DNA of 64,000 bases from Eledone cirrhosa (Eukaryota). Below are positions 10,940-31,800 of this stretch, piece by piece. Where the stretch lies: positions 10,168,001 to 10,232,000 of the forward strand of contig OZ024757.1 in the NCBI GenBank assembly GCA_964016885.1, written 5' to 3'. Position 1 is the stretch's first letter, and each line of letters starts with the position of its first letter. Under the pieces are notes generated by a model. That model had not been told where the DNA came from and did not search any database. It saw only the letters and a list, made by a program, of their open reading frames with translations. The translations under genes were made by a program, and so were the position numbers.

Positions 10940-13900
10940 AAGTTAAGTTGGAGTTAAGTTAAGTTGGGGTTAAGTTAAGTTGGGGTTAAGTTAAGTCGGA
11001 GTAAAGTTAAGTTGGGGTTAAGTTAAGTTGGGGGTAAGTTAAGTTGTGGTTAAGTTAAGTTGGGGTTAAGTTGGGGTTAAGTTAAGTTGGGGTTGAGTTA
11101 AGTTGGGGTTGAATTAAGTTGGGATTGAGTTAAGTTGGAGTTAAGTTAAGTTGGGGTTAAGTTAAGTTGGGGTTAAGTTAAGTTGGCGTTAAATTAAGTT
11201 GGGGTTAAGTTAAGTTGGGGTTACGTTAAGTTGGGGTTGAGTTAAGTTGGGGTCGAGTTAAGTTGGGGTTGAGTTAAGTTGGGGTTAAGTTAAGTTGGGG
11301 TTAAGTTAAGTTGGGGTTAAGTTAAGTTGGGATTAGATTAAGTAGGAGTTAAGTTAAGTTGGGGTTAAGTTAAGTTGTGGTTAAGTTAAGTTGGGGTTAA
11401 GTTAAGTTGGGGTTAAGTTAAGTTGGGGTTAACTTAAGTTGGAGTTAAGTTAAGTTGGGGTTAAGTTAAGTTGAGGCTAAGTTAAGTTGGGGCTGAGTTA
11501 AGTTGGGGTTGAGTTAAGTTGGGGTTGAGTTAAGTTGGGGTTGAGTTAAGTTGGGGTCGAGTTAAGTTGGGGTTGAGTTAAGTTGGGGTTAAGTTAAGTT
11601 GGGGTTAAGTTAAGTTGGGGTTAAGTTAAGTTGGAATTAGGTTAAGTTGGGGTTAAGTTAAGTTGGGGTTAAGTTAAGTTGTGGTTAATTTAAGTTGGGG
11701 TTAAGTTAAGTTGGGGTTAAGTTAAGTTGGTGTTAAGGTAAGTTGGGGTTAAGTTAAGTTGGGGTTAAGTTAAGTTGGGGTTAAGTTAAGTTGGGGTTAA
11801 CTTAAGTTGGGGTTAACTTAAGTTGGGGTTAAGTTGGGGTTAACTTAATTGGGGTTAAGTTGGGGTTAACTTAAGTTGGGGTTAAGTTAAGTTGGGGTTG
11901 AGTTAAGTTGGGGTTGATTTAACTTGGGGTTGAGTTAAGTTGGAGTCGAGTTAAGTTGGGGTTGAGTTAAGTTGGGGTTAAATTAAGTTGGGGTTAAGTT
12001 AAGTTGGAGTTAAGTTAAGTTGGGGTTAAGTTAAGTTGGGGTTAAGTTAAGTTGGCGTTAAATTAAATTGGGGTTAAGTTAAGTTGGGGTTACGTTAAGT
12101 TGGGGTTAAGTTAAGTTGGGGTTAAGTCAAGTTGGGGTTAAATCAAGTTGGGGTTAACTTAAGTTTGGATTAACTTAAGTTGGGTTAACTTAAGTTGGGG
12201 TTAAGTTGGGCTTAACTTAAGTTGGGGTTAAGTTAAGTTGGGGTTGAGTTAAGTTGGGGTTGAGTTAAGTTGGGGTTGAGTTAAGTTGGGGTTGAGTTAA
12301 GTTGGGGTTGAGTTAAGTTGGGGTTAAGTTAAGTTGGGGTTAAGTTAAGTTGGGGTTAAGTTAAGTTGGGATTAGGTTAAGTTGGGGTTAAGTTAAGTTG
12401 GGGTTAAGTTAAGTCGGAGTAAAGTTAAGTTGGGGTTAAGTTAAGTTGGGGGTAAGTTAAGTTGTGGTTAAGTTAAGTTGGGGTTAAGTTGGGGTTAAGT
12501 TAAGTTGGGGTTGAGTTAAGTTGGGGTTGAATTAAGTTGGGATTGAGTTAAGTTGGAGTTAAGTTAAGTTGGGGTTAAGTTAAGTTGGGGTTAAGTTAAG
12601 TTGGCGTTAAATTAAGTTGGGGTTAAGTTAAGTTGGGGTTACGTTAAGTTGGGGTTAAGTTAAGTTGGGGTTAAGTCAAGTTGGGGTTAAATCAAGTTGT
12701 GGTTAAGTTAAGTTGGGGTTAAGTTAAGTTGGGGTTAAGTTAAGTTGGGGTTAACTTAAGTTGGAGTTAAGTTAAGTTGGGGTTAAGTTAAGTTGAGGCT
12801 AAGTTAAGTTGGGGCTGAGTTAACTTGGGGTTAAGTTAAGTTGGGGTTAAGTTAAGTTGGGGTTAAGGTAAGTTGGGGTTAAGTTAAGTTGGGCTTAAGT
12901 TAAGTTGGGGTTAAGTTAAGTTGGGGTTAACTTAAGTTGGGGTTAACTTAAGTTGGGGTTAAGTTGGGGTTAACTTAAGTTGGGGTTAATTTAAGTTGGG
13001 GTTGAGTTAAGTTGGGGTTGATTTCAGTTTGGGTTGAGTTAAGTTGGGGTCGAGTTAAGTTGTGGTTGTGTTAAGTTGGGGTTAAGTTAAGTTGGGGTTA
13101 AGTTAAGTTGGGGTTGAGTTAAGTTGGGATCGAGGTAAGTTGGGGTTGAGTTAAGTTGGGGTTAAGTTAAGTTGGGGTTAACTTAAGTTGGGGTTAACTT
13201 AAGTTGGGGTTAAGTTAAGTTGGGGTTAAGTTAAGTTGGGGTTAAGTTAAGTTGGGGTTAAGTTAAGTTGGGGTTAAGTTAAGTTGGGGTTGAGTTAAGT
13301 TAGGGTCGAGTTAAGTTGGGGTTGAGTTAATTTGGGGTTGAATTAAGTTGGGGTTAGGTTAAGTTGGGGTTAAGTTAAGTTGGGGTTAAGTTAAGTTGGG
13401 GTTGATTTAAGTTGGGGTTGATTTAAGTTGGGGCTGAATTAAGTTGGGGTCGAGTTAAGTTGGGGTTGAGTTAAGTTGGGGTTAAGTTAAGTTGGGGTTA
13501 AGTTAAGTTGGAGTTAAGTTAAGTTGGGGTTAAGTTAAGTTGGGGTTAAGTTAAGTCGGAGTAAAGTTAAGTTGGGGTTAAGTTAAGTTGGGGGTAAGTT
13601 AAGTTGTGGTTAAGTTAAGTTGGGGTTCAGTTGGGGTTAAGTTAAGTTGGGGTTGAGTTAAGTTGGGGTTGAATTAAGTTGGGATTGAGTTAAGTTGGAG
13701 TTAAGTTAAGTTGGGGTTAAGTTAAGTTGGGGTTAAGTTAAGTTGGCGTTAAATTAAGTTGGGGTTAAGTTAAGTTGGGGTTACGTTAAGTTGGGGTTGA
13801 GTTAAGTTGGGGTCGAGTTAAGTTGGGGTTGAGTTAAGTTGGGGTTAAGTTAAGTTGGGGTTAAGTTAAGTTGGGGTTAAGTTAAGTTGGGATTAGATTA

Positions 13901-16900
13901 AGTAGGAGTTAAGTTAAGTTGGGGTTAAGTTAAGTTGTGGTTAAGTTAAGTTGGGGTTAAGTTAAGTTGGGGTTAAGTTAAGTTGGGGTTAACTTAAGTT
14001 GGAGTTAAGTTAAGTTGGGGTTAAGTTAAGTTGAGGCTAAGTTAAGTTGGGGCTGAGTTAAGTTGGGGTTGAGTTAAGTTGGGGTTGAGTTAAGTTGGGG
14101 TTGAGTTAAGTTGGGGTCGAGTTAAGTTGGGGTTGAGTTAAGTTGGGGTTAAGTTAAGTTGGGGTTAAGTTAAGTTGTGGTTAATTTAAGTTGGGGTTAA
14201 GTTAAGTTGGGGTTAAGTTAAGTTGGTGTTAAGGTAAGTTGGGGTTAAGTTAAGTTGGGGTTAAGTTAAGTTGGGGTTAAGTTAAGTTGGGGTTAACTTA
14301 AGTTGGGGTTAACTTAAGTTGGGGTTAAGTTGGGGTTAACTTAATTGGGGTTAAGTTGGGGTTAACTTAAGTTGGGGTTAAGTTAAGTTGGGGTTGAGTT
14401 AAGTTGGGGTTGATTTAACTTGGGGTTGAGTTAAGTTGGAGTCGAGTTAAGTTGGGGTTGAGTTAAGTTGGGGTTAAATTAAGTTGGGGTTAAGTTAAGT
14501 TGGAGTTAAGTTAAGTTGGGGTTAAGTTAAGTTGGGGTTAAGTTAAGTTGGCGTTAAATTAAATTGGGGTTAAGTTAAGTTGGGGTTACGTTAAGTTGGG
14601 GTTAAGTTAAGTTGGGGTTAAGTCAAGTTGGGGTTAAATCAAGTTGGGGTTAACTTAAGTTTGGATTAACTTAAGTTGGGTTAACTTAAGTTGGGGTTAA
14701 GTTGGGCTTAACTTAAGTTGGGGTTAAGTTAAGTTGGGGTTGAGTTAAGTTGGGGTTGAGTTAAGTTGGGGTTGAGTTAAGTTGGGGTTGAGTTAAGTTG
14801 GGGTCGAGTTAAGTTGGGGTTGAGTTAAGTTGGGGTTAAGTTAAGTTGGGGTTAAGTTAAGTTGGGGTTAAGTTAAGTTGGGATTAGGTTAAGTTGGGGT
14901 TAAGTTAAGTTGGGGTTAAGTTAAGTCGGAGTAAAGTTAAGTTGGGGTTAAGTTAAGTTGGGGGTAAGTTAAGTTGTGGTTAAGTTAAGTTGGGGTTAAG
15001 TTGGGGTTAAGTTAAGTTGGGGTTGAGTTAAGTTGGGGTTGAATTAAGTTGGGATTGAGTTAAGTTGGAGTTAAGTTAAGTTGGGGTTAAGTTAAGTTGG
15101 GGTTAAGTTAAGTTGGCGTTAAATTAAGTTGGGGTTAAGTTAAGTTGGGGTTACGTTAAGTTGGGGTTAAGTTAAGTTGGGGTTAAGTCAAGTTGGGGTT
15201 AAATCAAGTTGTGGTTAAGTTAAGTTGGGGTTAAGTTAAGTTGGCGTTAAGTTAAGTTGGGGTTAACTTAAGTTGGGGTTAAGTTAAGTTGAGGCTAAGT
15301 TAAGTTGGGGCTGAGTTAACTTGGGGTTAAGTTAAGTTGGGGTTAAGTTAAGTTGGGGTTAAGGTAAGTTGGGGTTAAGTTAAGTTGGGCTTAAGTTAAG
15401 TTGGGGTTAAGTTAAGTTGGGGTTAACTTAAGTTGGGGTTAACTTAAGTTGGGGTTAAGTTGGGGTTAACTTAAGTTGGGGTTAATTTAAGTTGGGGTTG
15501 AGTTAAGTTGGGGTTGATTTCAGTTTGGGTTGAGTTAAGTTGGGGTCGAGTTAAGTTGTGGTTGTGTTAAGTTGGGGTTAAGTTAAGTTGGGGTTAAGTT
15601 AAGTTGGGGTTGAGTTAAGTTGGGATCGAGGTAAGTTGGGGTTGAGTTAAGTTGGGGTTAAGTTAAGTTGGGGTTAACTTAAGTTGGGGTTAACTTAAGT
15701 TGGGGTTAAGTTAAGTTGGGGTTAAGTTAAGTTGGGGTTAAGTTAAGTTGGGGTTAAGTTAAGTTGGGGTTAAGTTAAGTTGGGGTTGAGTTAAGTTAGG
15801 GTCGAGTTAAGTTGGGGTTGAGTTAATTTGGGGTTGAATTAAGTTGGGGTTAGGTTAAGTTGGGGTTAAGTTAAATTTGGTTTAAGTTAAGTTGGGGTTA
15901 AGTTAAGTTGGGGTTAAGTTAAGTTGGGATTAGATTAAGTTGGGGTTAAGTTAAGTTGGGGTTGAGTTAAGTTGGGGTTAAGTTAAGTTGGCGTTAAGTT
16001 AAGTTGGGGTTGAGTTAAGTTGGGGTTGAATTAAGTTGGGATTGAGTTAAGTTGGAGTTAAGTTAAGTTGGGGTTAAGTTAAGTTGGGGTTAAGTTAAGT
16101 TGGCGTTAAATTAAGTTGGGGTTAAGTTAAGTTGGGGTTACGTTAAGTTGGGGATAAGTTAAGTTGGGGTTAAGTCAAGTTGGGGTTAAATCAAGTTGGG
16201 GTTAACTTAAGTTTGGATTAACTTAAGTTGGGTTAACTTAAGTTGGGATTAAGTTGGGGTTAACTTAAGTTGGGGTTAAGTTAAGTTGGCGTTGAGTTAA
16301 GTTGGGGTTGAGTTAAGTTGGGGTTGAGTTAAGTTGGGGTTGAGTTAAGTTGGGGTCGAGTTAAGTTGGGGTTGATTTAAGTTGGGGTTAAGTTAAGTTG
16401 TGGTTAAGTTAAGTTGGGGTTAAGTTAAGTTGGGATTAGATTAAGTAGGAGTTAAGTTAAGTTGGGGTTAAGTTAAGTTGTGGTTAAGTTAAGTTGGGGT
16501 TAAGTTAAGTTGGGGTTAAGTTAAGTTGGGGTTAACTTAAGTTGGAGTTAAGTTAAGTTGGGGTTAAGTTAAATTTGGTTTAAGTTAAGTTGGGGTTAAG
16601 TTAAGTTGGGGTTAAGTTAAGTTGGGATTAGATTAAGTTGGGGTTAAGTTAAGTTGGGGTTGAGTTAAGTTGGGGTTAAGTTAAGTTGGCGTTAAGTTAA
16701 GTTGGGGTTAAGTTAAGTTGGGGTTAAGTTAAGTTGGGGTTAATTTAAGTTGGGGTTAAGTTAAGTTGGGGTTAAGTTAAGTTGGGGTTAAGTTAAGTTG
16801 GGGTTAAGTTAAGTTGGAGTTAAGTTAAGTTGGGGTTAAGTCAAGTTGGGGTTGAGTTAATTTGGGGTTAAGTTAAGTTGGGGTTAAGTTAAGTTGGAGT

Positions 16901-19757
16901 TAAGTTAAGTTGGGGTTAAGTCAAGTTGGGGTTGAGTTAATTTGGGGTTGAATTAAGTTGGGGTTAGGTTAAGTTGGGGTTAAGTTAAGTTTGGTTTAAG
17001 TTAAGTTGGGGTTTAGTTAAGTTGGGGTTAAGTTAAGTTGGGGTTAAGTTAAGTTGGGGTTGATTTAAGTTGGGGTTGATTTAAGTTGGGGTTGAATTAA
17101 GTTGGGGTCGAGTTAAGTTGGGGTTGAGTTAAGTTGGGGTTAAGTTAAGTTGGGGTTAAGTTAAGTTGGAGTTAAGTTAAGTTGGGGTTAAGTTAAGTTG
17201 GGGTTAAGTTAAGTCGGAGTAAAGTTAAGTTGGGGTTAAGTTAAGTTGGGGGTAAGTTAAGTTGTGGTTAAGTTAAGTTGGGGTTAAGTTGGGCTTAAGT
17301 TAAGTTGGGGTTGAGTTAAGTTGGGGTTGAATTAAGTTGGGATTGAGTTAAGTTGGAGTTAAGTTAAGTTGGGGTTAAGTTAAGTTGGCGTTAAATTAAG
17401 TTGGGGTTAAGTTAAGTTGGGGTTACGTTAAGTTGGGGTTGAGTTAAGTTGGGGTCGAGTTAAGTTGGGGTTGAGTTAAGTTGGGGTTAAGTTAAGTTGG
17501 GGTTAAGTTAAGTTGGGGTTAAGTTAAGTTGGGATTAGATTAAGTAGGAGTTAAGTTAAGTTGGGGTTAAGTTAAGTTGTGGTTAAGTTAAGTTGGGGTT
17601 AACTTAAGTTGGAGTTAAGTTAAGTTGGGGTTAAGTTAAGTTGAGGCTAAGTTAAGTTGAGCTGAGTTAACTTGGGGTTAAGTTAAGTTGGGGTTAAATT
17701 AAGTTGGGGTTAAGGTAAGTTGGGGTTAAGTTAAGTTGGGGTTAAGTTAAGTTGGGGTTAAGTTAAGTTGGGGTTAACTTAAGTTGGGGTTAAGTTGGGG
17801 TTAACTTAAGTTGGGGTTAATTTAAGTTGGGGTTGAGTTAAGTTGGGGTTGATTTCAGTTTGGGTTGAGTTAAGTTGGGGTCGAGTTAAGTTGGGGTTGT
17901 GTTAAGTTGGGGTTAAGTTAAGTTGGGGTTAAGTTAAGTTGGGGTTGAGTTAAGTTGGGATCGAGGTAAGTTGGGGTTGAGTTAAGTTGGGGTTAAGTTA
18001 AGTTTGGTTTAAGTTAAGTTGGGGTTAAGTTAAGTTGGGGTTAAGTTAAGGTGGGATTAGGTTAAGTTGGGGTTAAGTTAAGTTGGGGTTAAGTTAAGTT
18101 GTGGTTAATTTAAGTTGGGGTTAAGTTAAGTTGGGGTTAAGTTAAGTTGGGGTTAAGGTAAGTTGGGGTTAAGTTAAGTTGGGGTTAAGTTAAGTTGGGG
18201 TTAAGTTAAGTTGGGGTTAACTTAAGTTGGGGTTAAGTTGGGGTTAACTTAAGTTGGGGTTAAGTTGGGGTTAACTTAAGTTGGGGTTAAGTTAAGTTGG
18301 GGTTGAGTTAAGTTGGGGTTGATTTAAGTTGGGGTTGAGGTAAGTTGGAGTCGAGTTAAGTTGGGGTTGAGTTAAGTTGGGGTTAAGTTAAGTTGGGGTT
18401 AAGTTAAGTTGGGGTTAAGTTAAGTCGGAGTTAAGTTAAGTTGGGGTTAAGTTAAGTTGGGGGTAAGTTAAGTTGTGGTTAAGTTAAGTTGGAGTTAAGT
18501 TGGGGTTAAGTTAAGTTGGGGTTAAGTTAAGTGGGGTTGAGTTAAGTTGGAGTTAAGTTAAGTTGGGGTTAATTTAAGTTGGGGTTAAGTTAAGTCGGGG
18601 TAAAGTTAAGTTGGGGTTAAGTTAAGTTGGGGGTAAGTTAATTTGGGGTTAAGTTAAGTTGGGGTTTAGTTAATTTGGGGTTAAGTCAAGTTGGGGTTAA
18701 GTCAAGTTGGGGTTAAGTTAAGTTGGGGTTAAGTTAAGTCGGGGTTAAGTTAAGTTGGGGTTAAGTTAAGTCGGGGTTAAGTTAAGTTGGGGTTAAGTTA
18801 AGTTGGGGTAAGTTAAGTTGGGGTTAAGTTAAGTTGGGGTTTACTTAAGTTGGGGTTAAGTCAAGTTGGGGTTAAGTCAAGTTGGGGTTAAGACAAGTTG
18901 GGGTTAAGTTAAGTTGGGGTTAAGTTAAGTTGGGGTTAAATTAAGTTGGGGTTAAGTTAAGTTGGGGTTAAGTTAAGTTGGCGTTAAGTTAAGTTGGGGT
19001 TAAGTTAACTTGGGGTTAAGTTAAGTTGGGGTTAAGTTAAGTTGGGGTTAAGTCAAGTTGGGGTTAAATCAAGTTGGGGTTAACTTAAGTTTGGATTAAC
19101 TTAAGTTGGGTTAACTTAAGTTGGGGTTAAGTTGGGGTTAACTTAAGTTGGGGTTAAGTTAAGTTGGGGTTAAGTTAAGTTGGGGTTGAGTTAAGTTGGG
19201 GTTGAGTTAAGTTGGGGTTGAGTTAAGTTGGGGTTGATTTAAGTTGGGGTTGAGTTAAGTTGGGGTCGAGTTAAGTTGGGGTTGAGTTAAGTTGGGGTTA
19301 AGTTAAGTTGGGGTTAAGTTAAGTTGGGGTTAAGTTAAGTTTGGTTTAAGTTAAGTTGTGGTTAATTTAAGTTGGGGTTAAGTTAAGTTGGGGTTAAGTT
19401 AAGTTGGTGTTAAGGTAAGTTGGGGTTAAGTTAAGTTGGGGTTAAGTTAAGTTGGGGTTAAGTTAAGTTGGGGTTAACTTAAGTTGGGGTTAACTTAAGT
19501 TGGGGTTAAGTTGGGGTTAACTTAAGTTGGGGTTAAGTTAAGTTGGGGTTGAGTTAAGTTGGGGTTGATTTAACTTGGGGTTGAGTTAAGTTGGAGTCGA
19601 GTTAAGTTGGGGTTGAGTTAAGTTGGGGTTAAATTAAGTTGGGGTTAAGTTAAGTTGAAGTTAAGTTAAGTTGGGGTTAAGTTAAGTTGGGGTTAAGTTA
19701 AGTTGGCGTTAAATTAAATTGGGGTTAAGTTAAGTTGGGGTTACGTTAAGTTGGGGT
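3741..19757 (+). repeat. Long block paralogous to ~45151-58605 (offset ~41.4 kb, falling to ~38.8 kb after the extra 2.5-kb copy)
   Basis: Collinear rare markers: doubled GGGGTTTACTT cassette after 3741/45151, GGGGCTGAG 4341/45751, TTGCGG 4418/45844, TTCGGG 6379/47708, TTAGCG 10486/51831, GGAATTAGG ~11633/~53074, TGTGGTTGTG 13061/54471, AGACAAG 18892/57711, TTGAAGTT 19657/58503. Confidence 0.88.
10838..15874 (+). repeat. Tandem duplication of ~2.5 kb (10838-13378 / 13398-15874)
   Basis: GGGCTGAATT occurs at 10871/13431 (offset 2560) and TGTGGTTGTG at 13061/15557 (offset 2496). Both copies share AAATCAAGTTGTGG and GGGCTTAAGTT. The offset shrinks by 64 bp, equal to 4 monomers. Confidence 0.85.
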
Positions 19758-19970
19758 TATTTTAAGTTGGGGTTAAGTTAAGTTGGGGTTAATTTAAGTT
19801 GGGGTTAAGGTAAGTTGGGGTTCAGTTAAGTTGGGGTTAAGTTAAGTTGGGGGTAATTTATGTTGGGGGTAAGTTAAGTTGGGGTTAAGTTAAGTTGGGG
19901 ATAAGTTAAGTTGGGTGTAAGTTAAGTTGGGGGTAAGTTAAGTTGGGGGTAAGTTAAGTTGGGGTGAAGT
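19753..19970 (+). repeat. Left copy of ~220-bp direct repeat bounding the core
   Basis: The series GGGGTTATTTTAAG..TTAATTT..TTAAGGTAAG..TTCAG..GGGGGTAATTTATG..GGGGATAAG recurs at 22582 (offset 2829). Confidence 0.85.
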
Positions 19971-20795
19971 TAAGTTGGGGTTAAGCTAAGTTGGGGTTAA
20001 GTTAAGTAGGGGCTGAGTTAAGTTGGAGGTAAGTTAAGTTGGGGTTAAGTTAAGTTGGGGTTAAGTTAAGTTGGGGTTAACTTAAGTTGGGTTTAACTTA
20101 AGTTGGGGTTAAATTAAGTTGGGGTTAAGTTGGGGTTAAGATAAGTTGGGGTTAAGTTAAGTTGGGATTAAGTTAAATTGGGGTTAAGTTGTGGTTCAGT
20201 TGGGGTTAAGTTAAGTTGGGGTTAAGTTAAGTTGGGGTTAAGTTAAGTTGTGGTTAAGTTAAGTTGGGGTTAATTTAAGTTGGGGTTAATTTAAGTTGGG
20301 GTTAATTTAAGTTGGGGTTAATTTAAGTTGGGGTTAATTTAAGTGGGGGTTAAGTTAAGTTGGGGTTAAGTTGGGGTTAAGTTGGGGTTAAGTTGGGGTT
20401 AAGTTAACTTGGGGTTAAGTTGGGGTTAAGTTAAGTTGGGGTTAAGTTAAGTTGGGGTTAAGTTAAGTTGGGGTTAAGTTATGTTGGGGTTAAGTCAAGT
20501 TGGGGTTAAGTCAAGTTGGGGTTAAGTCAAGTTGGGGTTAATTTAAGTTAGGGTTAAGTTAAGTTGGGGTTAAGTCAAGTTGGGGTTAAGTCAAGTTGGG
20601 GTTAAATCAAGTTGGGGTTAAGTTAAGTTAGGGTTAAGTTAAGTTGGGGTTAAGTTAACTTGGGGTTAAGTTGGAGTTAAGTTAAGTTGGGGTTAATTTA
20701 AGTTGGGGTTAAGTTAAGTTGGGGGTTATTTAAGTTGGGGTTAAGTTAAGTTGGGGTTAAGTTAAGTTGGGCTTCAGTTAAGTTGGGGTTAAGTT

Positions 20796-20939
20796 AACTT
20801 AACCCCAACTTAACTTAACCCCAACTTAACTTAACCCCAACTTAACTGAAGCCCAACTTAACTTAACCCCAACTTAACTTAACCCCAACTTAACTTAACC
20901 CCAACTTAAATAACCCCCAACTTAACTTAACCCCAACTT
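20796..20939 (-). repeat. 144-bp inverted segment (9 monomer lengths of AACTTAACTTAACCCC); inverted duplication of the adjacent upstream sequence
   Basis: This is the only C-rich stretch in the window. It contains reverse complements of two private upstream variants: GGGCTTCAGTTAAGTT (20769-20784, mirrored at 20839-20854) and GGGGGTTATTTAAGTT (20721-20736, mirrored at 20903-20918). Confidence 0.97.
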
Positions 20940-22581
20940 AAGTTGGGGTAAATTTAAGTTGGGGTTAAGTTAAGTTGGGGCTGAGTTAAGTTGGGGTTAA
21001 GTTAAGTTGGGGTTAATTTAAGTTGGGGTTAAGTTAATTTGGGGTTAAGTTAAGTTGGCGTTAAGTTAAGTTGGGGTTAAATTAAGTTGGGGTTAAGTTA
21101 AGTTGGGGTAAGTTAAGTTGGGGTTAAGTTAAGTTGGGGTTAAGTCAAGTTGGGGTTAAGTCAAGTTGGGGTTAAGTCAAGTTGGGGTTAACTTAAGTTG
21201 GGGTTAAGTTAAGTTGGGGTTAAGTTAATTTGGGGTTAAGTTAAGTTGGCGTTAAGTTAAGTTGGGGTTAAGTTAATTTGGGGTTAAGTTAAGTTGGGGT
21301 TAAGTTAAGTTGGGGTTAAGTTAAGTTGGGGTTAAGTCAAGTTGGGTTTAAGTCAAGTTGGGGTTAAATCAAGTTGGAGTTAACTTAAGTTTGGATTAAC
21401 TTAAGTTGGGTTAACTTAAATTGGGGTTAAGTTGGGGTTGACTTAAGTTGGGGTTGAGTTAAGTTGGGGTCGAGTTAAGTTGGGGTTGAGTTAAGTTGGG
21501 GTTAAGTTAAGTTGGGGGTAACTTTAAGTTGGGGTTAAGTTAAGTTGGGGTTAATTTAAGTTGGGGTTAAGTTAAGTTGGGGTTAAGTTAAGTTGGGGTT
21601 AAGTAAAGTTGGGGTTGAGTTAATTTGGGGTTGAATTAAGTTGGGGTTAGGTTAAGTTGGGGTTAAGTTAAATTTGGTTTAAGTTAAGTTGGGGTTAAGT
21701 TAAGTTGGGGTTAATTTAAGTTGGGATTAGGTTAAGTTGGGGTTAAGTTAAGTTAGGGTTAAGTTAAGTTGGGGTTAAGTCAAGTTGGGGTTAAGTCAAG
21801 TTGGGGTTAAGTCAAGTTGGGGTTAAGTTAAGTTAGGGTTAAGTTAAGTTGGGGTTAAGTTAAATTGGGGTTAAGTTGGGGTTAAGTTAAGTTGAGGTTA
21901 AGTTAAGTTGGGGTTAATTTAAGTTGGGGTTAAGTTAAGTTGGGGTTAAGTTAAGTTGGGGTTAAGTTAAGTTGGGGTTAAGATAAGTTGGGGCTAATTT
22001 AAGTTGGTGTTAATTGAAGTTGGGGTTAAGTTAAGTTGGGGTTAAGTTAAGTTGGGGTTAAGTTAAGTTGGGGTTAAGTTAAGTTGGTGTTAACTTAAGT
22101 AGGGGTTAAGTTAAGTTGGGGTTAACTTAAGTTGGGGTTAACTTAAGTTGGGGTTAACTTAAGTTGGGGTTAAGTTGGGGTTAACTTAAGTTGGGGTTAA
22201 GTTAAGTTGGGGTTAAGTTAAGTTGGGGTTAAGTTAAGTTGGGGTTAAGTTAAGTTGTATTAAGTTACGTTGGGGGTAAGTTAAGTTGGGGATAAGTTAA
22301 GTTGGGGTTAAGTTAAGTTGAGGTTAAGTTAATTTGGGGTTAAGTTGAGTTGGGGGTAAGTTAAGTTGGGGGTAAGTTAAGTTGGGGTTAAGTTAAGTTG
22401 GGGTTAAGTTAAGTTGGGGGTAAGTTAAGTTGGGGTTAAGTTGGGGTTAAGTTAAGTTGGGGTTAAGTTGGGGTTAAGTTAAGTTGGGGTTAAGTTAAGT
22501 TGGGGTTAAGTTAAGTTGGGGGTAAGTTAAGTTAGGGGTAAGTTAAGTTGGGGTTAAGTTAAGTTGGGGTTAAATTAAGTT

Positions 22582-22800
22582 GGGGTTATTTTAAGTTGGG
22601 GTTAAGTTAAGTTGGGGTTAATTTAAGTTGGGGTTAAGGTAAGTTGGGGTTCAGTTAAGTTGCGGTTAAGTTAAGTTGGGGGTAATTTATGTTGGGGGTA
22701 AGTTAAGTTGGGGTTAAGTTAAGTTGGGGATAAGTTAAGTTGGGGGTAAGTTAAGTTGGGGGTAAGTTAAGTTGGGGGTAAGTTAAGTTGGGGGTAAGTT
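22582..22800 (+). repeat. Right copy of ~220-bp direct repeat bounding the core
   Basis: It has the same marker series as 19753-19970 with a few differences (GCGG for GGGG, GGGGG for GGGTG). Confidence 0.85.
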
Positions 22801-25800
22801 AAGTTGGGGTTAAGTTAAGTTGGGGTTAAGTTAAGTTGGGGTTGAGTTAAGTTGGGGTTGAGTTAAGTTGGGGTCGAGTTAAGTTGGGGTTGAGTTAAGT
22901 TGGGGTTAAGTTAAGTTGGGGTTAAGTTAAGTTGGGGTTAAGTTAAGTTGGGATTAGGTTAAGTTGGGGTTAAGTTAAGTTGGGGTTAAGTTAAGTCGGA
23001 GTAAAGTTAAGTTGGGGTTAAGTTAAGTTGGGGGTAAGTTAAGTTGTGGTTAAGTTAAGTTGGGGTTAAGTTGGGGTTAAGTTAAGTTGGGGTTGAGTTA
23101 AGTTGGGGTTGAATTAAGTTGGGATTGAGTTAAGTTGGAGTTAAGTTAAGTTGGGGTTAAGTTAAGTTGGGGTTAAGTTAAGTTGGGGTTACGTTAATTT
23201 GGGGTTAAGTTAAGTTGGGGTTAAGTCAAGTTGGGGTTAAATCAAGTTGGGGTTAACTTAAGTTTGGATTAACTTAAGTTGGGTTAACTTAAGTTGGGAT
23301 TAAGTTGGGGTTAACTTAAGTTGGGGTTAAGTTAAGTTGAGGCTAAGTTAAGTTGGGGCTGAGTTAAATTGGGGTTAAGTTAAGTTGGGGTTAAGGTAAG
23401 TTGGGGTTAAGTTAAGCTGGGGTTAAGTTAAGTTGGGGTTAAGTTAAGTTGGGGTTAACTTAAGTTGGGGTTAACTTAAGTTGGGGTTAAGTTGGGGTTA
23501 ACTTAAGTTGGGGTTAATTTAAGTTGGGGTTGAGTTAAGTTGGGGTTGATTTCAGTTTGGGTTGAGTTAAGTTGGGGTCGAGTTAAGTTGGGGTTGTGTT
23601 AAGTTGGGGTTAAGTTAAGTTGGGGTTAAGTTAAGTTGGGGTTGAGTTATGTTGGGATCGAGGTAAGTTGGGGTTGAGTTAAGTTGGGGTTAAGTTAAGT
23701 TGGGGTTAACTTAAGTTGGGGTTAACTTAAGTTGGGGTTAAGTTAAGTTGGGGTTAAGTTTAGGTAGGGTTAAGTTAAGTTGGGGTTAAGTTAAGTTGGG
23801 GTTAAGTTAAGTTGGGGTTAAGTTAAGTTGGGGTTGAGTTAAGTTAGGGTCGAGTTAAGTTGGGGTTGAGTTAATTTGAGGTTGAATTAAGTTGGGGTTA
23901 GGTTAAGTTGGGCTTAAGTTAAATTTGGTTTAAGTTAAGTTGGGGTTAAGTTAAGTTGGGGTTAAGTTAAGTTGGGATTAGATTAAGTTGGGGTTAAGTT
24001 AAGTTGGGGTTGAGTTAAGTTGGGGTTAAGTTAAGTTGGCGTTAAGTTAAGTTGGGGTTAAGTTAAGTTGGGGTTAAGTTAAGTTGGGGTTAATTTAAGT
24101 TGGGGTTAAGTTAAGTTGGGGTTAAGTTAAGTTGGGGTTAAGTTAAGTTGGGGTTAAGTTAAGTTGGAGTTAAGTTAAGTTGGGGTTAATTTAAGTTGGG
24201 GTTAAGTTAAGTCGGGGTAAAGTTAAGTTGGGGTTAAGTTAAGTTGGGGGTAAGTTAATTTGGGGTTAAGTTAAGTTGGGGTTTAGTTGATTTGGGGTTA
24301 AGTCAAGTTGGGGTTAAGTCAAGTTGGGGTTAAGTTAAGTTGGGGTTAAGTTAAGTCGGGGTTAAGTTAAGTTGGGATTAAGTTAAGTCGGGGTTAAGTT
24401 AAGTTGGGGTTAAGTTAAGTTGGGGTAAGTTAAGTTGGGGTTAAGTTAAGTTGGGGTTTACTTAAGTTGGGGTTAAGTCAAGTTGGGGTTAAGTCAAGTT
24501 GGGGTTAAGTCAAGTTGGGGTTAAGTTAAGTTGGGGTTAAGTTAAGTTGGGGTTAAATTAAGTTGGGGTTAAGTTAAGTTGGGGTTAAGTTAAGTTGGCG
24601 TTAAGTTAAGTTGGGGTTAAGTTAACTTGGGGTTAAGTTAACTTGGGGTTAAGTTAAGTTGGGGTTAAGTCAAGTTGGGGTTAAATCAAGTTGGGGTTAA
24701 CTTAAGTTTGGATTAACTTAAATTGGGTTAACTTAAGTTGGGGTTAAGTTGGGGTTAACTTAAGTTGGGGTTAAGTTAAGTTGGGGTTAAGTTAAGTTGG
24801 GGTTGAGTTAAGTTGGGGTTGAGTTAAGTTGGGGTTGAGTTAAGTTGGGGTTGATTTAAGTTGGGGTTGAGTTAAGTTGGGGTCGAGTTAAGTTGGGGTT
24901 GAGTTAAGTTGGGGTTAAGTTAAGTTGGGGTTAAGTTAAGTTGGGGTTAAGTTAAGTTTGGTTTAAGTTAAGTTGGGGTTAAGTTAAGTTGGGGTTAAGT
25001 TAAGTTGGGATTAGGTTAAGTTGGGGTTAAGTTAAGTTGGGGTTAAGTTAAGTTGTGGTTAATTTAAGTTGGGGTTAAGTTAAGTTGGGGTTAAGTTAAG
25101 TTGGTGTTAAGGTAAGTTGGGGTTAAGTTAAGTTGAGGTTAAGTTAAGTTGGGGTTAAGTTAAGTTGGGGTTAACTTAAGTTGGGGTTAACTTAAGTTGG
25201 GGTTAAGTTGGGGTTAACTTAATTAGGGTTAAGTTGGGGTTAACTTAAGTTGGGGTTAAGTTAAGTTGGGGTTGAGTTAAGTTGGGGTTGATTTAACTTG
25301 GGGTTGAGTTAAGTTGGAGTCGAGTTAAGTTGGGGTTGAGTTAAGTTGGGGTTAAATTAAGTTGGGGTTAAGTTAAGTTGGAGTTAAGTTAAGTTGGGGT
25401 TATGTTAAGTTGGGGTTAAGTTAAGTTGGCGTTAAATTAAATTGGGGTTAAGTTAAGTTGGGGTTACGTTAAGTTGGGGTTAAGTTAAGTTGGGGTTAAG
25501 TCAAGTTGGGGTTAAATCAAGTTGGGGTTAACTTAAGTTTGGATTAACTTAAGTTGGGTTAACTTAAGTTGGGGTTAAGTTGGGCTTAACTTAAGTTGGG
25601 GTTAAGTTAAGTTGGGGTTGAGTTAAGTTGGGGTTGAGTTAAGTTGGGGTTGAGTTAAGTTGGGGTTGAGTTAAGTTGGGGTCGAGTTAAGTTGGGGTTG
25701 AGTTAAGTTGGGGTTAAGTTAAGTTGGGGTTAAGTTAAGTTGGGGTTAAGTTAAGTTGGGATTAGGTTAAGTTGGGGTTAAGTTAAGTTGGGGTTAAGTT

Positions 25801-28800
25801 AAGTCGGAGTAAAATTAAGTTGGGGTTAAGTTAAGTTGGGGGTAAGTTAAGTTGTGGTTAAGTTAAGTTGGGGTTAAGTTGGGGTTAAGTTGGGCTTAAC
25901 TTAAGTTGGGGTTAAGTTAAGTTGGGGTTGAGTTAAGTTGGGGTTGAGTTAAGTTGGGGTTGAATTAAGTTGGGATTGAGTTAAGTTGGAGTTAAGTTAA
26001 GTTGGGGTTAAGTTAAGTTGGGGTTAAGTTAAGTTGGCGTTAAATTAAGTTGGGGTTAAGTTAAGTTGGGGTTACGTTAAGTTGGGGTTAAGTTAAGTTG
26101 GGGTTAAGTCAAGTTGGGGTTAAATCAAGTTGGGGTTAACTTAAGTTTGGATTAACTTAAGTTGGGTTAACTTAAGTTGGGATTAAGTTGGGGTTAACTT
26201 AAGTTGGGGTTAAGTTAAGTTGAGGCTAAGTTAAGTTGGGGCTGAGTTAAATTGGGGTTAAGTTAAGTTAGGGTTAAGTTAAGTTGGGGTTAAGGTAAGT
26301 TGGGGTTAAGTTAAGTTGGGGTTAAGTTAAGTTGGGGTTAAGTTAAGTTGGGGTTAACTTAAGTTGGGGTTAACTTAAGTTGGGGTTAAGTTGGGGTTAA
26401 CTTAAGTTGGGGTTAATTTAAGTTGGGGTTGAGTTAAGTTGGGGTTGATTTCAGTTTGGGTTGAGTTAAGTTGGGGTCGAGTTAAGTTGGGGTTGTGTTA
26501 AGTTGGGGTTAAGTTAAGTTGGGGTTAAGTTAAGTTGGGGTTGAGTTAAGTTGGGATCGAGGTAAGTTGGGGTTGAGTTAAGTTGGGGTTAAGTTAAGTT
26601 GGGGTTAACTTAAGTTGGGGTTAACTTAAGTTGGGGTTAAGTTAAGTTGGGGTTAAGTTAAGTTGGGGTTAAGTTAAGTTGGGGTTGAGTTAAGTTAGGG
26701 TCGAGTTAAGTTGGGGTTGAGTTAATTTGAGGTTGAATTAAGTTGGGGTTAGGTTAAGTTGGGGTTAAGTTAAATTTGGTTTAAGTTAAGTTGGGGTTAA
26801 GTTAAGTTGGGGTTAAGTTAAGTTGGGATTAGATTAAGTTGGGGTTAAGTTAAGTTGGGGTTGAGTTAAGTTGGGGTTAAGTTAAGTTGGCGTTAAGTTA
26901 AGTTGGGGTTAAGTTAAGTTGGGGTTAAGTTAAGTTGGGGTTAATTTAAGTTGGGGTTAAGTTAAGTTGGGGTTAAGTTAAGTTGGGGTTAAGTTAAGTT
27001 GGGGTTAAGTTAAGTTGGAGTTAAGTTAAGTTGGGGTTAAGTCAAGTTGGGGTTGAGTTAATTTGGGGTTAAGTTAAGTTGGGGTTAAGTTAAGTTGGAG
27101 TTAAGTTAAGTTGGGGTTAAGTCAAGTTGGGGTTGAGTTAATTTGGGGTTGAATTAAGTTGGGGTTAGGTTAAGTTGGGGTTAAGTTAAGTTTGGTTTAA
27201 GTTAAGTTGGGGTTAAGTTAAGTTGGGGTTAAATTAAGTTGGGGTTAAGTTAAGTTGGGGTTGATTTAAGTTGGGGTTGATTTAAGTTGGGGTTGAATTA
27301 AGTTGGGGTCGAGTTAAGTTGGGGTTGAGTTAAGTTGGGGTTAAGTTAAGTTGGGGTTAAGTTAAGTTGGAGTTAAGCTAAGTTGGGGTTAAGTTAAGTT
27401 GGGGTTAAGTTAAGTCGGAGTAAAGTTAAGTTGGGTTTAAGTTAAGTTGGGGGTAAGTTAAGTTGTGGTTAAGTTAAGTTGGGGTTAAGTTGGGGTTAAG
27501 TTAAGTTGGGGTTGAGTTAAGTTGGGGTTGAATTAAGTTGGGATTGAGTTAAGTTGGAGTTAAGTTAAGTTGGGGTTAAGTTAAGTTGGGGTTAAGTTAA
27601 GTTGGCGTTAAATTAAGTTGGGGTTAAGTTAAGTTGGGGTCACGTTAAGTTGGGGTTGAGTTAAGTTGGGGTCGAGTTAAGTTGGGGTTGAGTTAAGTTG
27701 GGGTTAAGTTAAGTTGGGGTTAAGTTAAGTTGGGATTAGATTAAGTAGGAGTTAAGTTAAGTTGGGGTTAAGTTAAGTTGTGGTTAAGTTAAGTTGGTGG
27801 TAAGTTAAGTTGGGGTTAAGTTAAGTTGGGGTTAACTTAAGTTGGAGTTAAGTTAAGTTGGGGTTAAGTTAAGTTGAGGCTAAGTTAAGTTGGGGCTGAG
27901 TTAACTTGGGGTTAAGTTAAGTTGGGGTTAAGTTAAGTTGGGGTTAAGGTAAGTTGGGGTTAAGTTAAGTTGGGGTTAAGTTCAGTTGGGGTTAAGTTAA
28001 GTTGGGGTTAACTTAAGTTGGGGTTAAGTTGGGGTTAACTTAAGTTGGGGTTAATTTAAGTTGGGGTTGAGTTAAGTTGGGGTTGATTTCAGTTTGGGTT
28101 GAGTTAAGTTGGGGTCGAGTTAAGTTGGAGTTGTGTTAAGTTGGGGTTAAGTTAAGTTGGGGTTAAGTTAAGTTGGGGTTGAGTTAAGTTGGGATCGAGA
28201 TAAGTTGGGGTTGAGTTAAGTTGGGGTTAAGTTAAGTTTGGTTTAAGTTAAGTTGGGGTTAAGTTAAGTTGGGGTTAACTTAAGGTGGGATTAGGTTAAG
28301 TTGGGGTTAAGTTAAGTTGGGGTTAAGTTAAGTTGTGGTTAAGTTAAGTTGGGGTTAAGTTAAGGTGGGGTTAAGTTAAGTTGGGGTTAAGGTAAGTTGG
28401 GGTTAAGTTAAGTTGGGGTTAAGTTAAGTTGGGGTTAAGTTAAGTTGGGGTTAACTTAAGTTGGGGTTAAGTTGGGGTTAACTTAAGTTGGGGTTAAGTT
28501 GGGGTTAACTTAAGTTGGGGTTAAGTTAAGTTGGGGTTGAGTTAAGTTGGGGTTGATTTAAGTTGGGGTTGAGTTAAGTTGGAGTCGAGTTAAGTTGGGG
28601 TTGAGTTAAGTTGGGGTTAAGTTAAGTTGGGGTTAAGTTAAGTTGGGGTTAAGTTAAGTCGGAGTTAAGTTAAGTTGGGGTTAAGTTAAGTTGGGGGTAA
28701 GTTAAGTTGTGGTTAAGTTAAGTTGGGGTTAAGTTGGGGTTAAGTTAAGTTGGGGTTAAGTTAAGTGGGGTTGAGTTAAGTTGGAGTTAAGTTAAGTTGG

Positions 28801-31800
28801 GGTTAATTTAAGTTGGGGTTAAGTTAAGTCAGGGTAAAGTTAAGTTGGGGTTAAGTTAAGTTGGGGGTAAGTTAATTTGGGGTTAAGTTAAGTTGGGGTT
28901 TAGTTAATTTGGGGTTAAGTCAAGTTGGGGTTAAGTCAAGTTGGGGTTAAGTTAAGTTGGGGTTAAGTTAAGTCGGGGTTAAGTTAAGTTGGGGTTAAGT
29001 TAAGTCGGGGTTAAGTTAAGTTGGGGTTAAGTTAAGTTGGGGTAAGTTAAGTTGGGGTTAAGTTAAGTTGGGGTTTACTTAAGTTGGGGTTAAGTCAAGT
29101 TGGGGTTAAGTCAAGTTGGGGTTAAGTCAAGTTGGGGTTAAGTTAAGTTGGGGTTAAGTTAAGTTGGGGTTAAATTAAGTTGGGGTTAAGTTAAGTTGGG
29201 GTTAAGTTAAGTTGGCGTTAAGTTAAGTTGGGGTTAAGTTAACTTGGGGTTAAGTTAACTTGGGGTTAAGTTAAGTTGGGGTTAAGTCAAGTTGGGGTTA
29301 AATCAAGTTGGGGTTAACTTTAGTTTGGATTAACTTAAGTTGGGTTAACTTAAGTTGGGGTTAAGTTGGGGTTAACTTAAGTTGGGGTTAAGTTAAGTTG
29401 GGGTTAAGTTAAGTTGGGGTTGAGTTAAGTTGGGGTTGAGTTAAGTTGGGGTTGAGTTAAGTTGGGGTTGATTTAAGTTGGGGTTGAGTTAAGTTGGGGT
29501 CGAGTTAAGTTGGGGTTGAGTTAAGTTGGGGTTAAGTTAAGTTGGGGTTAAGTTAAGTTGGGGTTAAGTTAAGTTTGGTTTAAGTTAAGTTGGGGTTAAG
29601 TTAAGTTGGGGTTAAGTTAAGTTGGGATTAGGTTAAGTTGGGGTTAAGTTAAGTTGGGGTTAAGTTAAGTTGTGGTTAATTTAAGTTGGGGTTAAGTTAA
29701 GTTGGGGTTAAGTTAAGTTGGTGTTAAGGTAAGTTGGGGTTAAGTTAAGTTGGGGTAAAGTTAAGTTGGGGTTAAGTTAAGTTGGGGTTAAGTTAAGTTG
29801 GGGTTAACTTAAGTTGGGGTTAAGTTGGGGTTAACTTAATTGGGGTTAAGTTGGGGTTAACTTAAGTTGGGGTTAAGTTAAGTTGGGGTTGAGTTAAGTT
29901 GGGGTTGATTTAACTTGGGGTTGAGTTAAGTTGGAGTCGAGTTAAGTTGGGGTTGAGTTAAGTTGGGGTTAAATTAAGTTGGGGTTAAGTTAAGTTGGAG
30001 TTAAGTTAAGTTGGGGTTAAGTTAAGTTGGGGTTAAGTTAAGTTGGCGTTAAATTAAATTGGGGTTAAGTTAAGTTGGGGTTACGTTAAGTTGGGGTTAA
30101 GTTAAGTTGGGGTTAAGTCAAGTTGGGGTTAAATCAAGTTGGGGTTAACTTAAGTTTGGATTAACTTAAGTTGGGTTAACTTAAGTTGGGGTTAAGTTAA
30201 GTTGGGGTTGAGTTAAGTTGGGGTTGAGTTAAGTTGGGGTTGAGTTAAGTTGGGGTTGAGTTAAGTTGGGGTCGAGTTAAGTTGGGGTTGAGTTAAGTTG
30301 GGGTTAAGTTAAGTTGGGGTTAAGTTAAGTTGGGGTTAAGTTAAGTTGGGATTAGGTTAAGTTGGGGTTAAGTTAAGTTGGGGTTAAGTTAAGTCGGAGT
30401 AAAGTTAAGTTGGGGTTAAGTTAAGTTGGGGGTAAGTTAAGTTGTGGTTAAGTTAAGTTGGGGTTAAGTTGGGGTTAAGTTAAGTTGGGGTTGAGTTAAG
30501 TTGGGGTTGAATTAAGTTGGGATTGAGTTAAGTTGGAGTTAAGTTAAGTTGGGGTTAAGTTAAGTTGGGGTTAAGTTAAGTTGGGGTTAACTTAAGTTGG
30601 GGTTAAGTTGGGGTTAACTTAAGTTGGGGTTAATTTAAGTTGGGGTTAAGTTAAGTTGGGGTTACGTTAAGTTGGGGTTAAGTTAAGTTGGGGTTAAGTC
30701 AAGTTGGGGTTAAATCAAGTTGGGGTTAACTTAAGTTTGGATTAACTTAAGTTGGGTTAACTTAAGTTGGGATTAAGTTGGGGTTAACTTAAGTTGGGGT
30801 TAAGTTAAGTTGAGGCTAAGTTAAGTTGGGGCTGAGTTAAATTGGGGTTAAGTTAAGTTAGGGTTAAGTTAAGTTGGGGTTAAGGTAAGTTGGGGTTAAG
30901 TTAAGTTGGGGTTAAGTTAAGTTGGGGTTAAGTTAAGTTGGGGTTAACTTAAGTTGGGGTTAACTTAAGTTGGGGTTAAGTTGGGGTTAACTTAAGTTGG
31001 GGTTAATTTAAGTTGGGGTTAAGTTAAGTTGGGGTTGATTTCAGTTTGGGTTGAGTTAAGTTGGGGTCGAGTTAAGTTGGGGTTGTGTTAAGTTGGGGTT
31101 AAGTTAAGTTGGGGTTAAGTTAAGTTGGGGTTGAGTTAAGTTGGGATCGAGGTAAGTTGGGGTTGAGTTAAGTTGGGGTTAAGTTAAGTTGGGGTTAACT
31201 TAAGTTGGGGTTAACTTAAGTTGGGGTTAAGTTAAGTTGGGGTTAAGTTTAGGTAGGGTTAAGTTAAGTTGGGGTTAAGTTAAGTTGGGGTTAAGTTAAG
31301 TTGGGGTTAAGTTAAGTTGGGGTTGAGTTAAGTTAGGGTCGAGTTAAGTTGGGGTTGAGTTAATTTGAGGTTGAATTAAGTTGGGGTTAGGTTAAGTTGG
31401 GGTTAAGTTAAATTTGGTTTAAGTTAAGTTGGGGTTAAGTTAAGTTGGGGTTAAGTTAAGTTGGGATTAGATTAAGTTGGGGTTAAGTTAAGTTGGGGTT
31501 GAGTTAAGTTGGGGTTAAGTTAAGTTGGCGTTAAGTTAAGTTGGGGTTAAGTTAAGTTGGGGTTAAGTTAAGTTGGGGTTAATTTAAGTTGGGGTTAAGT
31601 TAAGTTGGGGTTAAGTTAAGTTGGGGTTAAGTTAAGTTGGGGTTAAGTTAAGTTGGAGTTAAGTTAAGTTGGGGTTAAGTCAAGTTGGGGTTGAGTTAAT
31701 TTGGGGTTAAGTTAAGTTGGGGTTAAGTTAAGTTGGAGTTAAGTTAAGTTGGGGTTAAGTCAAGTTGGGGTTGAGTTAATTTGGGGTTGAATTAAGTTGG

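What the first reader, a model, noticed from the sequence alone, without database searches (positions are those of the whole stretch)
20705..20950. Fold-back inverted duplication with both junctions centred on the monomer's TTAA palindrome
Seen: polarity flips at GGGGTTAAGTT|AACTTAACCCC (centre 20795/20796, perfect spacerless 40-bp palindrome 20776-20815). It flips back at ACCCCAACTT|AAGTTGGGGT (centre 20939/20940, perfect 20-bp palindrome 20930-20949). The inverted 144 bp carries mirror copies of two private variants just upstream, so it is a copy of its neighbour rather than a simple flip. Inference: two template switches (or hairpin-primed fold-back synthesis) using TTAA self-complementarity. 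The product is cruciform-prone and is the only polarity break in 64 kb.
Basis: partly seen in the sequence, partly recalled or inferred. Interest (0 to 1): 0.75.

Follow-up and report, generated by a model that had tools for sequence, protein, structure and literature searches.

The report
Rare template-switch inversion in satellite DNA
A 144-base piece of a long simple-repeat array sits backwards and partly duplicates the sequence just before it; it occurs three times nearby, likely as copies of one old slip of the DNA-copying machinery onto the opposite strand, which is a known kind of mutation and probably has no function.

Summary
In a 16-bp satellite, a 144-bp (nine-monomer) segment is inverted, both junctions fall on the monomer's second TTAA, and it carries mirror copies of two private upstream variants. 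It is not a one-off. The same two junctions occur three times on contig C18 in diverged flanks, and they are the only polarity breaks in 625 kb of array read, so this is one founder event that was later amplified. It is not an exact fold-back either: the inverted arm has two extra monomers next to the junction, the opposite of what hairpin priming predicts. The layout matches the known inter-strand '3-1-2-4' template switch (inverted repeat plus inverted spacer). A second, independent family on C28 has the same layout. Seven of eight independent junctions sit on TTAA (7.8% expected by chance), but TTAA is simply the only 4-bp cross-strand microhomology in this monomer, and one abundant junction is off TTAA. 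Raw-read support and cruciform formation were not tested. An earlier scan note on another satellite of this genome reached a similar founder-junction reading. Verdict: a real, clean example of a known mutation class; modest interest.

The parts
1..64000 (+). 16-bp G-rich/C-poor tandem satellite with two TTAA per monomer and 11-bp short variants; part of an array of at least 625 kb on C18
20700..20795 (+). Forward arm (6 monomers) that is duplicated in the inverted segment; starts at the centre of a second TTAA (switch point 3) and ends at switch point 1
   Evidence: 66 bp perfect at a 32-nt offset; positions 25-96 perfect at a 48-nt offset
20721..20734 (+). Private variant 1 (five-G run and altered first TTAA), forward copy
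20769..20777 (+). Private variant 2 (GGGC followed by TTCAG), forward copy
20776..20815 (.). Junction 1, forward to reverse, centre 20795/20796 on the second TTAA of both sides; 40-bp perfect palindrome
20796..20939 (-). Inverted segment, 144 bp = 9 monomers (fragment 2-to-3 of the template-switch model)
20796..20827 (-). Inverted spacer: two consensus monomers with no counterpart in the forward arm
   Evidence: inferred from the offset of the private marks
20828..20939 (-). Inverted copy (7 monomers) of the forward arm, with mirrored variant 2 (20846-20854) and variant 1 (20905-20918)
20930..20949 (.). Junction 2, reverse to forward, centre 20939/20940 on the second TTAA of both sides; 20-bp perfect palindrome
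20940..21040 (+). Downstream flank; resumes in the ancestral register (four monomers between the GGGC mark and the TAAATTT monomer, as in two uninverted paralogues)

Best explanation
The 144-bp segment is an inverted partial duplication, likely made once by an inter-strand template switch at a replication fork and then likely carried into three copies by ordinary duplication of array blocks. Inferred steps: the growing strand left its template at a TTAA (point 1, 20795), annealed through that 4-bp self-complementary word to the opposite template two monomers further on (point 2), copied backwards for nine monomers to another TTAA (point 3), and returned to its own template at about point 2 (point 4). 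One consensus monomer was later lost from the forward arm. Shown: the anatomy, the three copies, the private marks, the arm offset and the TTAA register. Inferred: the fork mechanism, the order of events and the absence of function. TTAA sets the register because it is the only cross-strand match of 4 bp or more in this monomer; it does not make a hotspot (one founder among about 62,000 TTAA sites read).
For: (1) Order of marks: forward '5T. B. 16C 3C', then inverted (read back) '.. B.. 16C 3C. .', i.e. an inverted repeat plus an inverted spacer. This is the product of event 3-1-2-4 in PMC5453318, which with its mirror case makes 23% of 794 human-chimp events and needs an inter-strand switch (passages). 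(2) Net gain of 8 monomers over both uninverted paralogues (C18:10128062, 10130429). (3) Only 0.02-1.7% of 39,602 monomer positions lie between near copies sharing two rare marks, so a flip is unlikely to hit such a boundary by chance. (4) Independent family B on C28 (213 bp, 4 copies examined) has the same layout: mirrored rare marks plus four extra monomers on the inverted side, both junctions on TTAA. (5) TTAA register in 7 of 8 independent junctions against 20 of 256 by chance (P about 1e-7; 5 of 6 without this locus, P about 2e-5). (6) Lengths of 144 and 213 bp, and 120-216 bp for 11 of 14 family-A copies measured, are near the 100-200 bp lagging-strand gap quoted in PMC7999016 (passage). 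(7) Three copies with the same junctions but diverged flanks and one substitution inside copy 1.
Against: No exact pre-event allele was found in 625 kb; the two paralogues match only about 12 monomers upstream and 6 downstream. The model needs one later monomer loss, an earlier two-monomer gain, and the coincidence that point 4 equals point 2, which a flip or a fold-back gives for free. The spacer is pure consensus, so its origin cannot be read directly. One family-A copy (L099:8316) shows marks moved across the junction, so arms do exchange after the event, which could mimic this layout. One of 8 junctions is off TTAA, as is an isolated 43-bp inverted pair outside the arrays. 144 bp exceeds the longest fragment (128) in the ape catalogue, which excluded masked repeats (PMC7954356 passages). 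The census misses junctions flanked by variant monomers, and two listings were cut at 100 rows.
Confidence: 0.5

Rival explanations
1. Plain in-place flip between two TTAA sites; the doubled marks come either from an earlier seven-monomer tandem duplication or from later copying between the two arms (quasi-palindrome correction).
For: Both junctions are reciprocal and in register, and the downstream flank resumes in the ancestral register. Marks moved across the junction in one family-A copy. Local tandem duplications exist in the array.
Against: A flip would have to start inside the 27-bp boundary window of that duplication; such positions are 0.02-1.7% of the array. Conversion alone does not give the 8-monomer gain over both paralogues. 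Family B repeats the layout.
Confidence: 0.18
2. Intra-strand hairpin fold-back, resuming where it stalled, followed by revision of the centre: inversion of the loop, or loss of two plus one monomers from the forward arm.
For: Explains the mirrored marks and the in-register downstream flank together. Exchange across a junction is seen in family A. Copy 1 has a deletion ending 2-3 monomers upstream of junction 1. The region folds into a long hairpin in silico (-111 to -130 kcal/mol against -19 for a forward-only stretch).
Against: As a single step it predicts a longer forward arm; both informative families have a longer inverted arm (+2 and +4 monomers), so each needs a second event in the same direction. 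All three C18 copies share the same offset at junction 1.
Confidence: 0.17
3. Staggered-break inversion: a break staggered by about seven monomers on the left and a nearly blunt break on the right, fill-in, flipping of the fragment and end-joining at TTAA.
For: Gives the same sequence, including the in-register right end. Inverted duplications at one breakpoint only are described for Drosophila inversions (PMC1885836 passages).
Against: Needs two breaks 32 bp apart on a fragment that is almost all overhang; the described cases are inversions of chromosome segments. It cannot be told from the best explanation by sequence.
Confidence: 0.1
4. Assembly or read artefact (fold-back chimera).
For: Raw reads were not examined. 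Runs X4-X6 hold 74-77% of the sampled words, which does not show that they hold the junction words.
Against: Three copies with identical junctions in flanks that differ by substitutions and whole monomers, and a substitution inside copy 1. The arms are not mirror images, as a fold-back read would be.
Confidence: 0.03
5. A TTAA-specific enzyme (piggyBac-type transposase, recalled as targeting TTAA) made the inversion, or the junctions are kept for a structural role.
For: TTAA at 7 of 8 junctions; hundreds of family-A junctions on C28.
Against: The segment is pure satellite with no terminal repeats or foreign sequence. TTAA is the only available microhomology. The C18 array does without junctions over more than 99.9% of its length. 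Family-A junctions share flanking marks, as copies of one founder would.
Confidence: 0.02

Closest known systems
Four-point template switch, type 3-1-2-4 / 1-3-4-2 (Loytynoja and Goldman 2017, PMC5453318; passages read)
   Same: [quoted passage not shown]
   Different: Here it lies inside a satellite (masked repeats were excluded in the ape survey, PMC7954356), is 144 bp (ape median 12, maximum 128), has TTAA microhomology at both ends, and was amplified afterwards.
Strand switches in satellite arrays: human HSat3 and beta satellite (10.1101/2021.07.12.452052; 10.64898/2026.07.22.740206), mouse major and minor satellite (PMC10880262); passages read
   Same: Polarity breaks inside otherwise head-to-tail arrays, read there as by-products of array expansion.
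   Different: The passages seen give counts and positions, not junction sequence or mechanism; here the register and the duplicated marks are resolved to the base.
Tribolium macro-dyad satellites (PMC13081366; passages read)
   Same: Inversion junctions repeated many times with near-identical sequence; predicted hairpins.
   Different: Those subarrays span kilobases and number in thousands genome-wide; this one is 144 bp in 3 copies. Only the C28 family A approaches that abundance.
Staggered-break inversions with inverted duplications (Ranz et al. 2007, PMC1885836; passages read)
   Same: Sequence at one breakpoint is duplicated in inverted orientation at the far end of the inversion.
   Different: Described for inversions of chromosome segments in non-repetitive DNA; here the duplication is most of the inverted piece.
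ODIRA inverted triplications (PMC4689423; search listing and start of abstract only) and fold-back inverted duplications (PMC3907307; search listing and start of abstract only)
   Same: Inverted junctions at short self-complementary sequence (recalled for both, not read).
   Different: No third, direct copy follows the inverted segment, and the spacer is inverted rather than left in its original orientation.

Membership tests
Template switch 3-1-2-4 | Inserted fragment is the reverse complement of nearby sequence | tested here: met
   Two marks, private on C18, are shared by the inverted segment and the adjacent forward arm
Template switch 3-1-2-4 | Inverted repeat separated by a spacer in inverted orientation | tested here: met
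   Two extra monomers on the inverted side of junction 1; the spacer is consensus sequence, so this rests on the offset of the marks
Template switch 3-1-2-4 | Product is fully explained from the ancestral sequence by one event | tested here: inconclusive
   No exact ancestor in 625 kb; two paralogues fit if one later monomer loss and one earlier two-monomer gain are allowed
Template switch 3-1-2-4 | Arises at a replication fork | not testable with these tools
   Inference from layout and length only
Intra-strand fold-back (3-2-1-4) | Loop stays in the original orientation, so the forward arm is at least as long as the inverted arm | tested here: not met
   Inverted arm longer by 2 monomers here and by 4 in family B
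Simple inversion (1-3-2-4) | No sequence duplicated, no net gain | tested here: not met
   Marks doubled; 16 against 8 monomer steps between the same landmarks
Inverted triplication (ODIRA type) | A third, direct copy after the inverted one | tested here: not met
   Neither mark occurs downstream of junction 2; the defining feature is taken from the abstract's wording and from recall
Staggered-break inversion | Inverted duplication of sequence from one breakpoint | tested here: met
   Same product as 3-1-2-4 with points 2 and 4 coinciding
Staggered-break inversion | Origin by breaks, fill-in and end-joining | not testable with these tools
   Sequence cannot separate it from template switching
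Macro-dyad satellite (Tribolium type) | Kilobase-scale opposed subarrays with thousands of conserved inversion sites | tested here: not met
   Three 144-bp segments in 625 kb on C18; C28 has hundreds of short ones and two larger switches
Cruciform-forming palindrome | Extrusion under negative supercoiling | not testable with these tools
   Only a computed single-strand fold

The most novel reading that the evidence does not exclude
Small polarity breaks in satellite arrays are born at replication forks as Okazaki-gap-sized inter-strand template switches, registered by the monomer's only cross-strand microhomology, and array amplification can turn one such accident into hundreds of regularly spaced dyads (family A on C28). 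This satellite would then be a natural base-resolved record that separates inter-strand from hairpin mechanisms, and a route by which a monomer with almost no dyad symmetry gains the cruciform-capable sites proposed to matter at centromeres.
Probability: 0.2. Interest if true: 0.55.

Novelty: new member of a known kind. Interest (0 to 1): 0.27.

Why it matters
Strand switches in satellites are widely counted, but in the passages I read they are not explained at base level. Here private variants give the arm offset, which favours an inter-strand switch over hairpin priming in two independent families, and the junction census shows the expected microhomology rule. That makes it a tidy worked example of how satellite arrays gain inversions and then multiply them. 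Nothing points to a function for this particular 144-bp segment.

Tried and rejected
Literature search for six monomer strings gave 1 unrelated paper, so the satellite was not found described in the searchable library. Searches on satellite inversion junctions gave no paper whose title or abstract start reports base-level template-switch junctions in a satellite; most full texts were not read, and supplements were not opened. The loose pattern returned 127 matches against 91 for the control; the 100 rows listed were non-satellite DNA, so it was uninformative. Of the non-array hits, L028, L029, L034 and L039 were inspected and are hairpins in unique DNA; they were left out of the tally, as were the other listed hits outside C18 and C28 arrays. 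L112 looked like a new junction class but is a family-A copy with a variant. The first inversion in L007 is read as a family-A copy shortened by a deletion and was not counted as independent. Palindrome arm length as evidence was rejected. No exact uninverted precursor was found. Runs X1-X3 hold small or partial shares of the words (0.05-0.23) and were not used. Raw-read support at the junctions remains open. Look-ups of earlier findings near this place and by sequence were empty.

Full report
Setting. The window is C18:10168001-10232000 of a 3.0-Gb genome and is wholly a 16-bp tandem repeat with strong G skew. I read 664 kb around it. The array starts near 9,896,700 and is still running at 10,522,000; it is absent at 10.70 Mb. 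The same satellite forms arrays on C2, C3 and C28. Earlier notes of this scan call the genome octopus-like; I did not test that.

Observation. Both breaks fall on the second TTAA of the monomer on both sides, nine monomers apart. The two variants are mirrored and occur once per strand in the window. Genome-wide exact searches find them on C18 only within this structure. The perfect arms are not informative: any in-register join of the two strands is locally a spacerless palindrome, and 30% of random joins give 20 bp or more.

One founder, three copies. Junction 1 occurs three times in the genome and junction 2 four times. Three pairs lie on C18 (10129119, 10132219, 10188795), each 144 bp long. 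They are the only polarity breaks in 625 kb, about 39,600 monomers and 61,900 TTAA sites. Copies 2 and 3 are identical inside and differ by 3 substitutions and two whole-monomer gaps in 1.6 kb of flank. Copy 1 differs by one substitution inside and 10-12 in 900 bp downstream, and has a different upstream flank. Shared junctions in diverged flanks mean one old event multiplied by block duplication (inference). A chimeric read would not give this pattern. Raw reads were not examined.

Anatomy. Written as monomers ('.' = consensus), with the inverted part read back, copies 2 and 3 are '5T. B. 16C 3C |.. B.. 16C 3C.. |. F'. Two uninverted paralogues nearby read '5T. x 16C y... F'. Three things follow. 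The structure has 8 monomers more than the paralogues. The right end of the read-back segment joins the downstream flank in the ancestral spacing. The inverted arm holds two monomers next to junction 1 that the forward arm lacks, and one more between the marks. In a tandem array a loop of whole monomers is invisible at the junction and shows only in such offsets. A hairpin-primed fold-back leaves its loop on the forward side; here the surplus is on the inverted side. That is an inverted repeat with an inverted spacer, event 3-1-2-4 of Loytynoja and Goldman, which they attribute to inter-strand switching and found (with its mirror case) in 23% of human-chimp events (PMC5453318, passages).

Other inversions of this satellite. 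Pattern searches with open gaps and 30 sampled 10-kb stretches of C28 (analysed in 20, 40) gave three more kinds. Family A: one search counts 1,479 matches, mostly two per junction among the 100 rows listed, so roughly 700 copies (estimate, not counted). One of its junctions is on the first TTAA of both sides; the other is off TTAA on the reverse side, with 1-3 nt of overlap. Fourteen copies measured were 120-423 bp. Family B: at least 21 places listed, 4 examined, 213 bp, both junctions pairing first with second TTAA. Its forward arm ends in rare marks that are mirrored in the inverted segment with four extra monomers beside the junction, the same layout as here. Two larger switches, at 131,964,565 and 132,859,225, are on the second TTAA; their arms are not long mirror images, and I count them as independent with some doubt. 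Tally: 7 of 8 junctions on TTAA. Of 256 possible blunt joins of the consensus, 20 have 4-bp microhomology, all at TTAA, and none has more. P is about 1e-7, or 2e-5 for 5 of 6 without this locus. Left out of the tally: a secondary deletion junction in L007 (on TTAA) and an isolated 43-bp inverted pair outside the arrays (off TTAA); with them it is 8 of 10. The census is incomplete where variant monomers flank a junction.

Mechanism. Best reading (0.5): one inter-strand template switch at a fork, both hops guided by TTAA, then loss of one monomer from the forward arm, then amplification. Founder lengths near the 100-200 bp lagging-strand gap (PMC7999016, passage) fit this but do not prove it. 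A flip after a tandem duplication would have to start at the duplication boundary; such positions are 0.02-1.7% of the array, depending on the rarity threshold. Against the best reading: no exact precursor was found, the return point coincides with point 2, and one family-A copy shows marks moved across its junction, so later exchange between arms is real and keeps the flip-plus-conversion and fold-back-plus-revision routes alive. A staggered-break inversion (PMC1885836, passages) gives the same sequence.

Structure and function. The region folds into a long hairpin as a single strand, as any opposed pair of array stretches would. Extrusion in cells is untested. The junctions survived copying; deletions beside junctions are seen in copy 1 and in L007, but whole-monomer indels are common throughout the array and I did not test for an excess. 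Nothing suggests a function for this segment.

Comparison and novelty. Strand switches in satellites are known from human, mouse and Tribolium, and the mutation class is known from unique DNA. What this locus adds is a base-resolved case inside a satellite, a second family with the same layout, and a microhomology rule with one exception. The monomer string was not found in the searchable papers. Supplements were not opened and could hold junction-level data for human or beetle satellites. Verdict: real, new member of a known kind, interest 0.27.

Noticed in passing
G000:C18:33633357-33633399 (L110): Isolated 43-bp inverted pair of satellite monomers with a one-base centre, between TA dinucleotides in AT-rich unique DNA, 23 Mb from the array; not TTAA-centred.
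   Followed up: partly
G000:C28:124.6-124.7 Mb and 130.2-135.0 Mb (L042, L054-L072, L098-L102, L104, L116-L118): Family A: hundreds of short inversions built into higher-order repeats every 1-4 kb in the stretches sampled, with variable length and one off-TTAA junction.
   Followed up: partly
G000:C28:128.56-129.15 Mb (L087-L089): Family B: 213-bp inverted duplication with the same layout as the finding.
   Followed up: yes
G000:C28:131964565 and 132859225 (L102, L104): Two switches of array polarity over several kb or more, both on the second TTAA; non-satellite DNA lies between them at 132.40 Mb.
   Followed up: partly
L099:8316 (C28, about 130,478,300): A family-A copy in which two marked monomers sit on the forward side of the junction instead of the inverted side, suggesting exchange between arms.
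   Followed up: partly
L090, L091 (C28:125.2 and 125.8 Mb): Repeated units with a short degenerate telomere-like tract, tandem subrepeats and what looks like the start of an 18S rRNA gene, between satellite blocks; recognised by eye from recall, not run through Rfam.
   Followed up: no
L040:1-1300 (C28, about 124.598 Mb): A diverged, related G-rich repeat borders the array.
   Followed up: no
G000:C2:209.20-209.75 Mb and C3:184.75 Mb onward: Further arrays of the same satellite in the middle of very long contigs, a position compatible with centromeres but not tested.
   Followed up: no
L028-L034, L039, L043 (C3, C4, C5, C8, C13, C28): Short near-perfect hairpins in unique DNA turn up repeatedly in the pattern searches.
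   Followed up: no
window 1-64000: G runs spaced 12 nt apart give 559 four-run matches with loops up to 12 nt but only 1 with loops up to 7 nt, so any G-quadruplex tendency would be of the long-loop kind.
   Followed up: no
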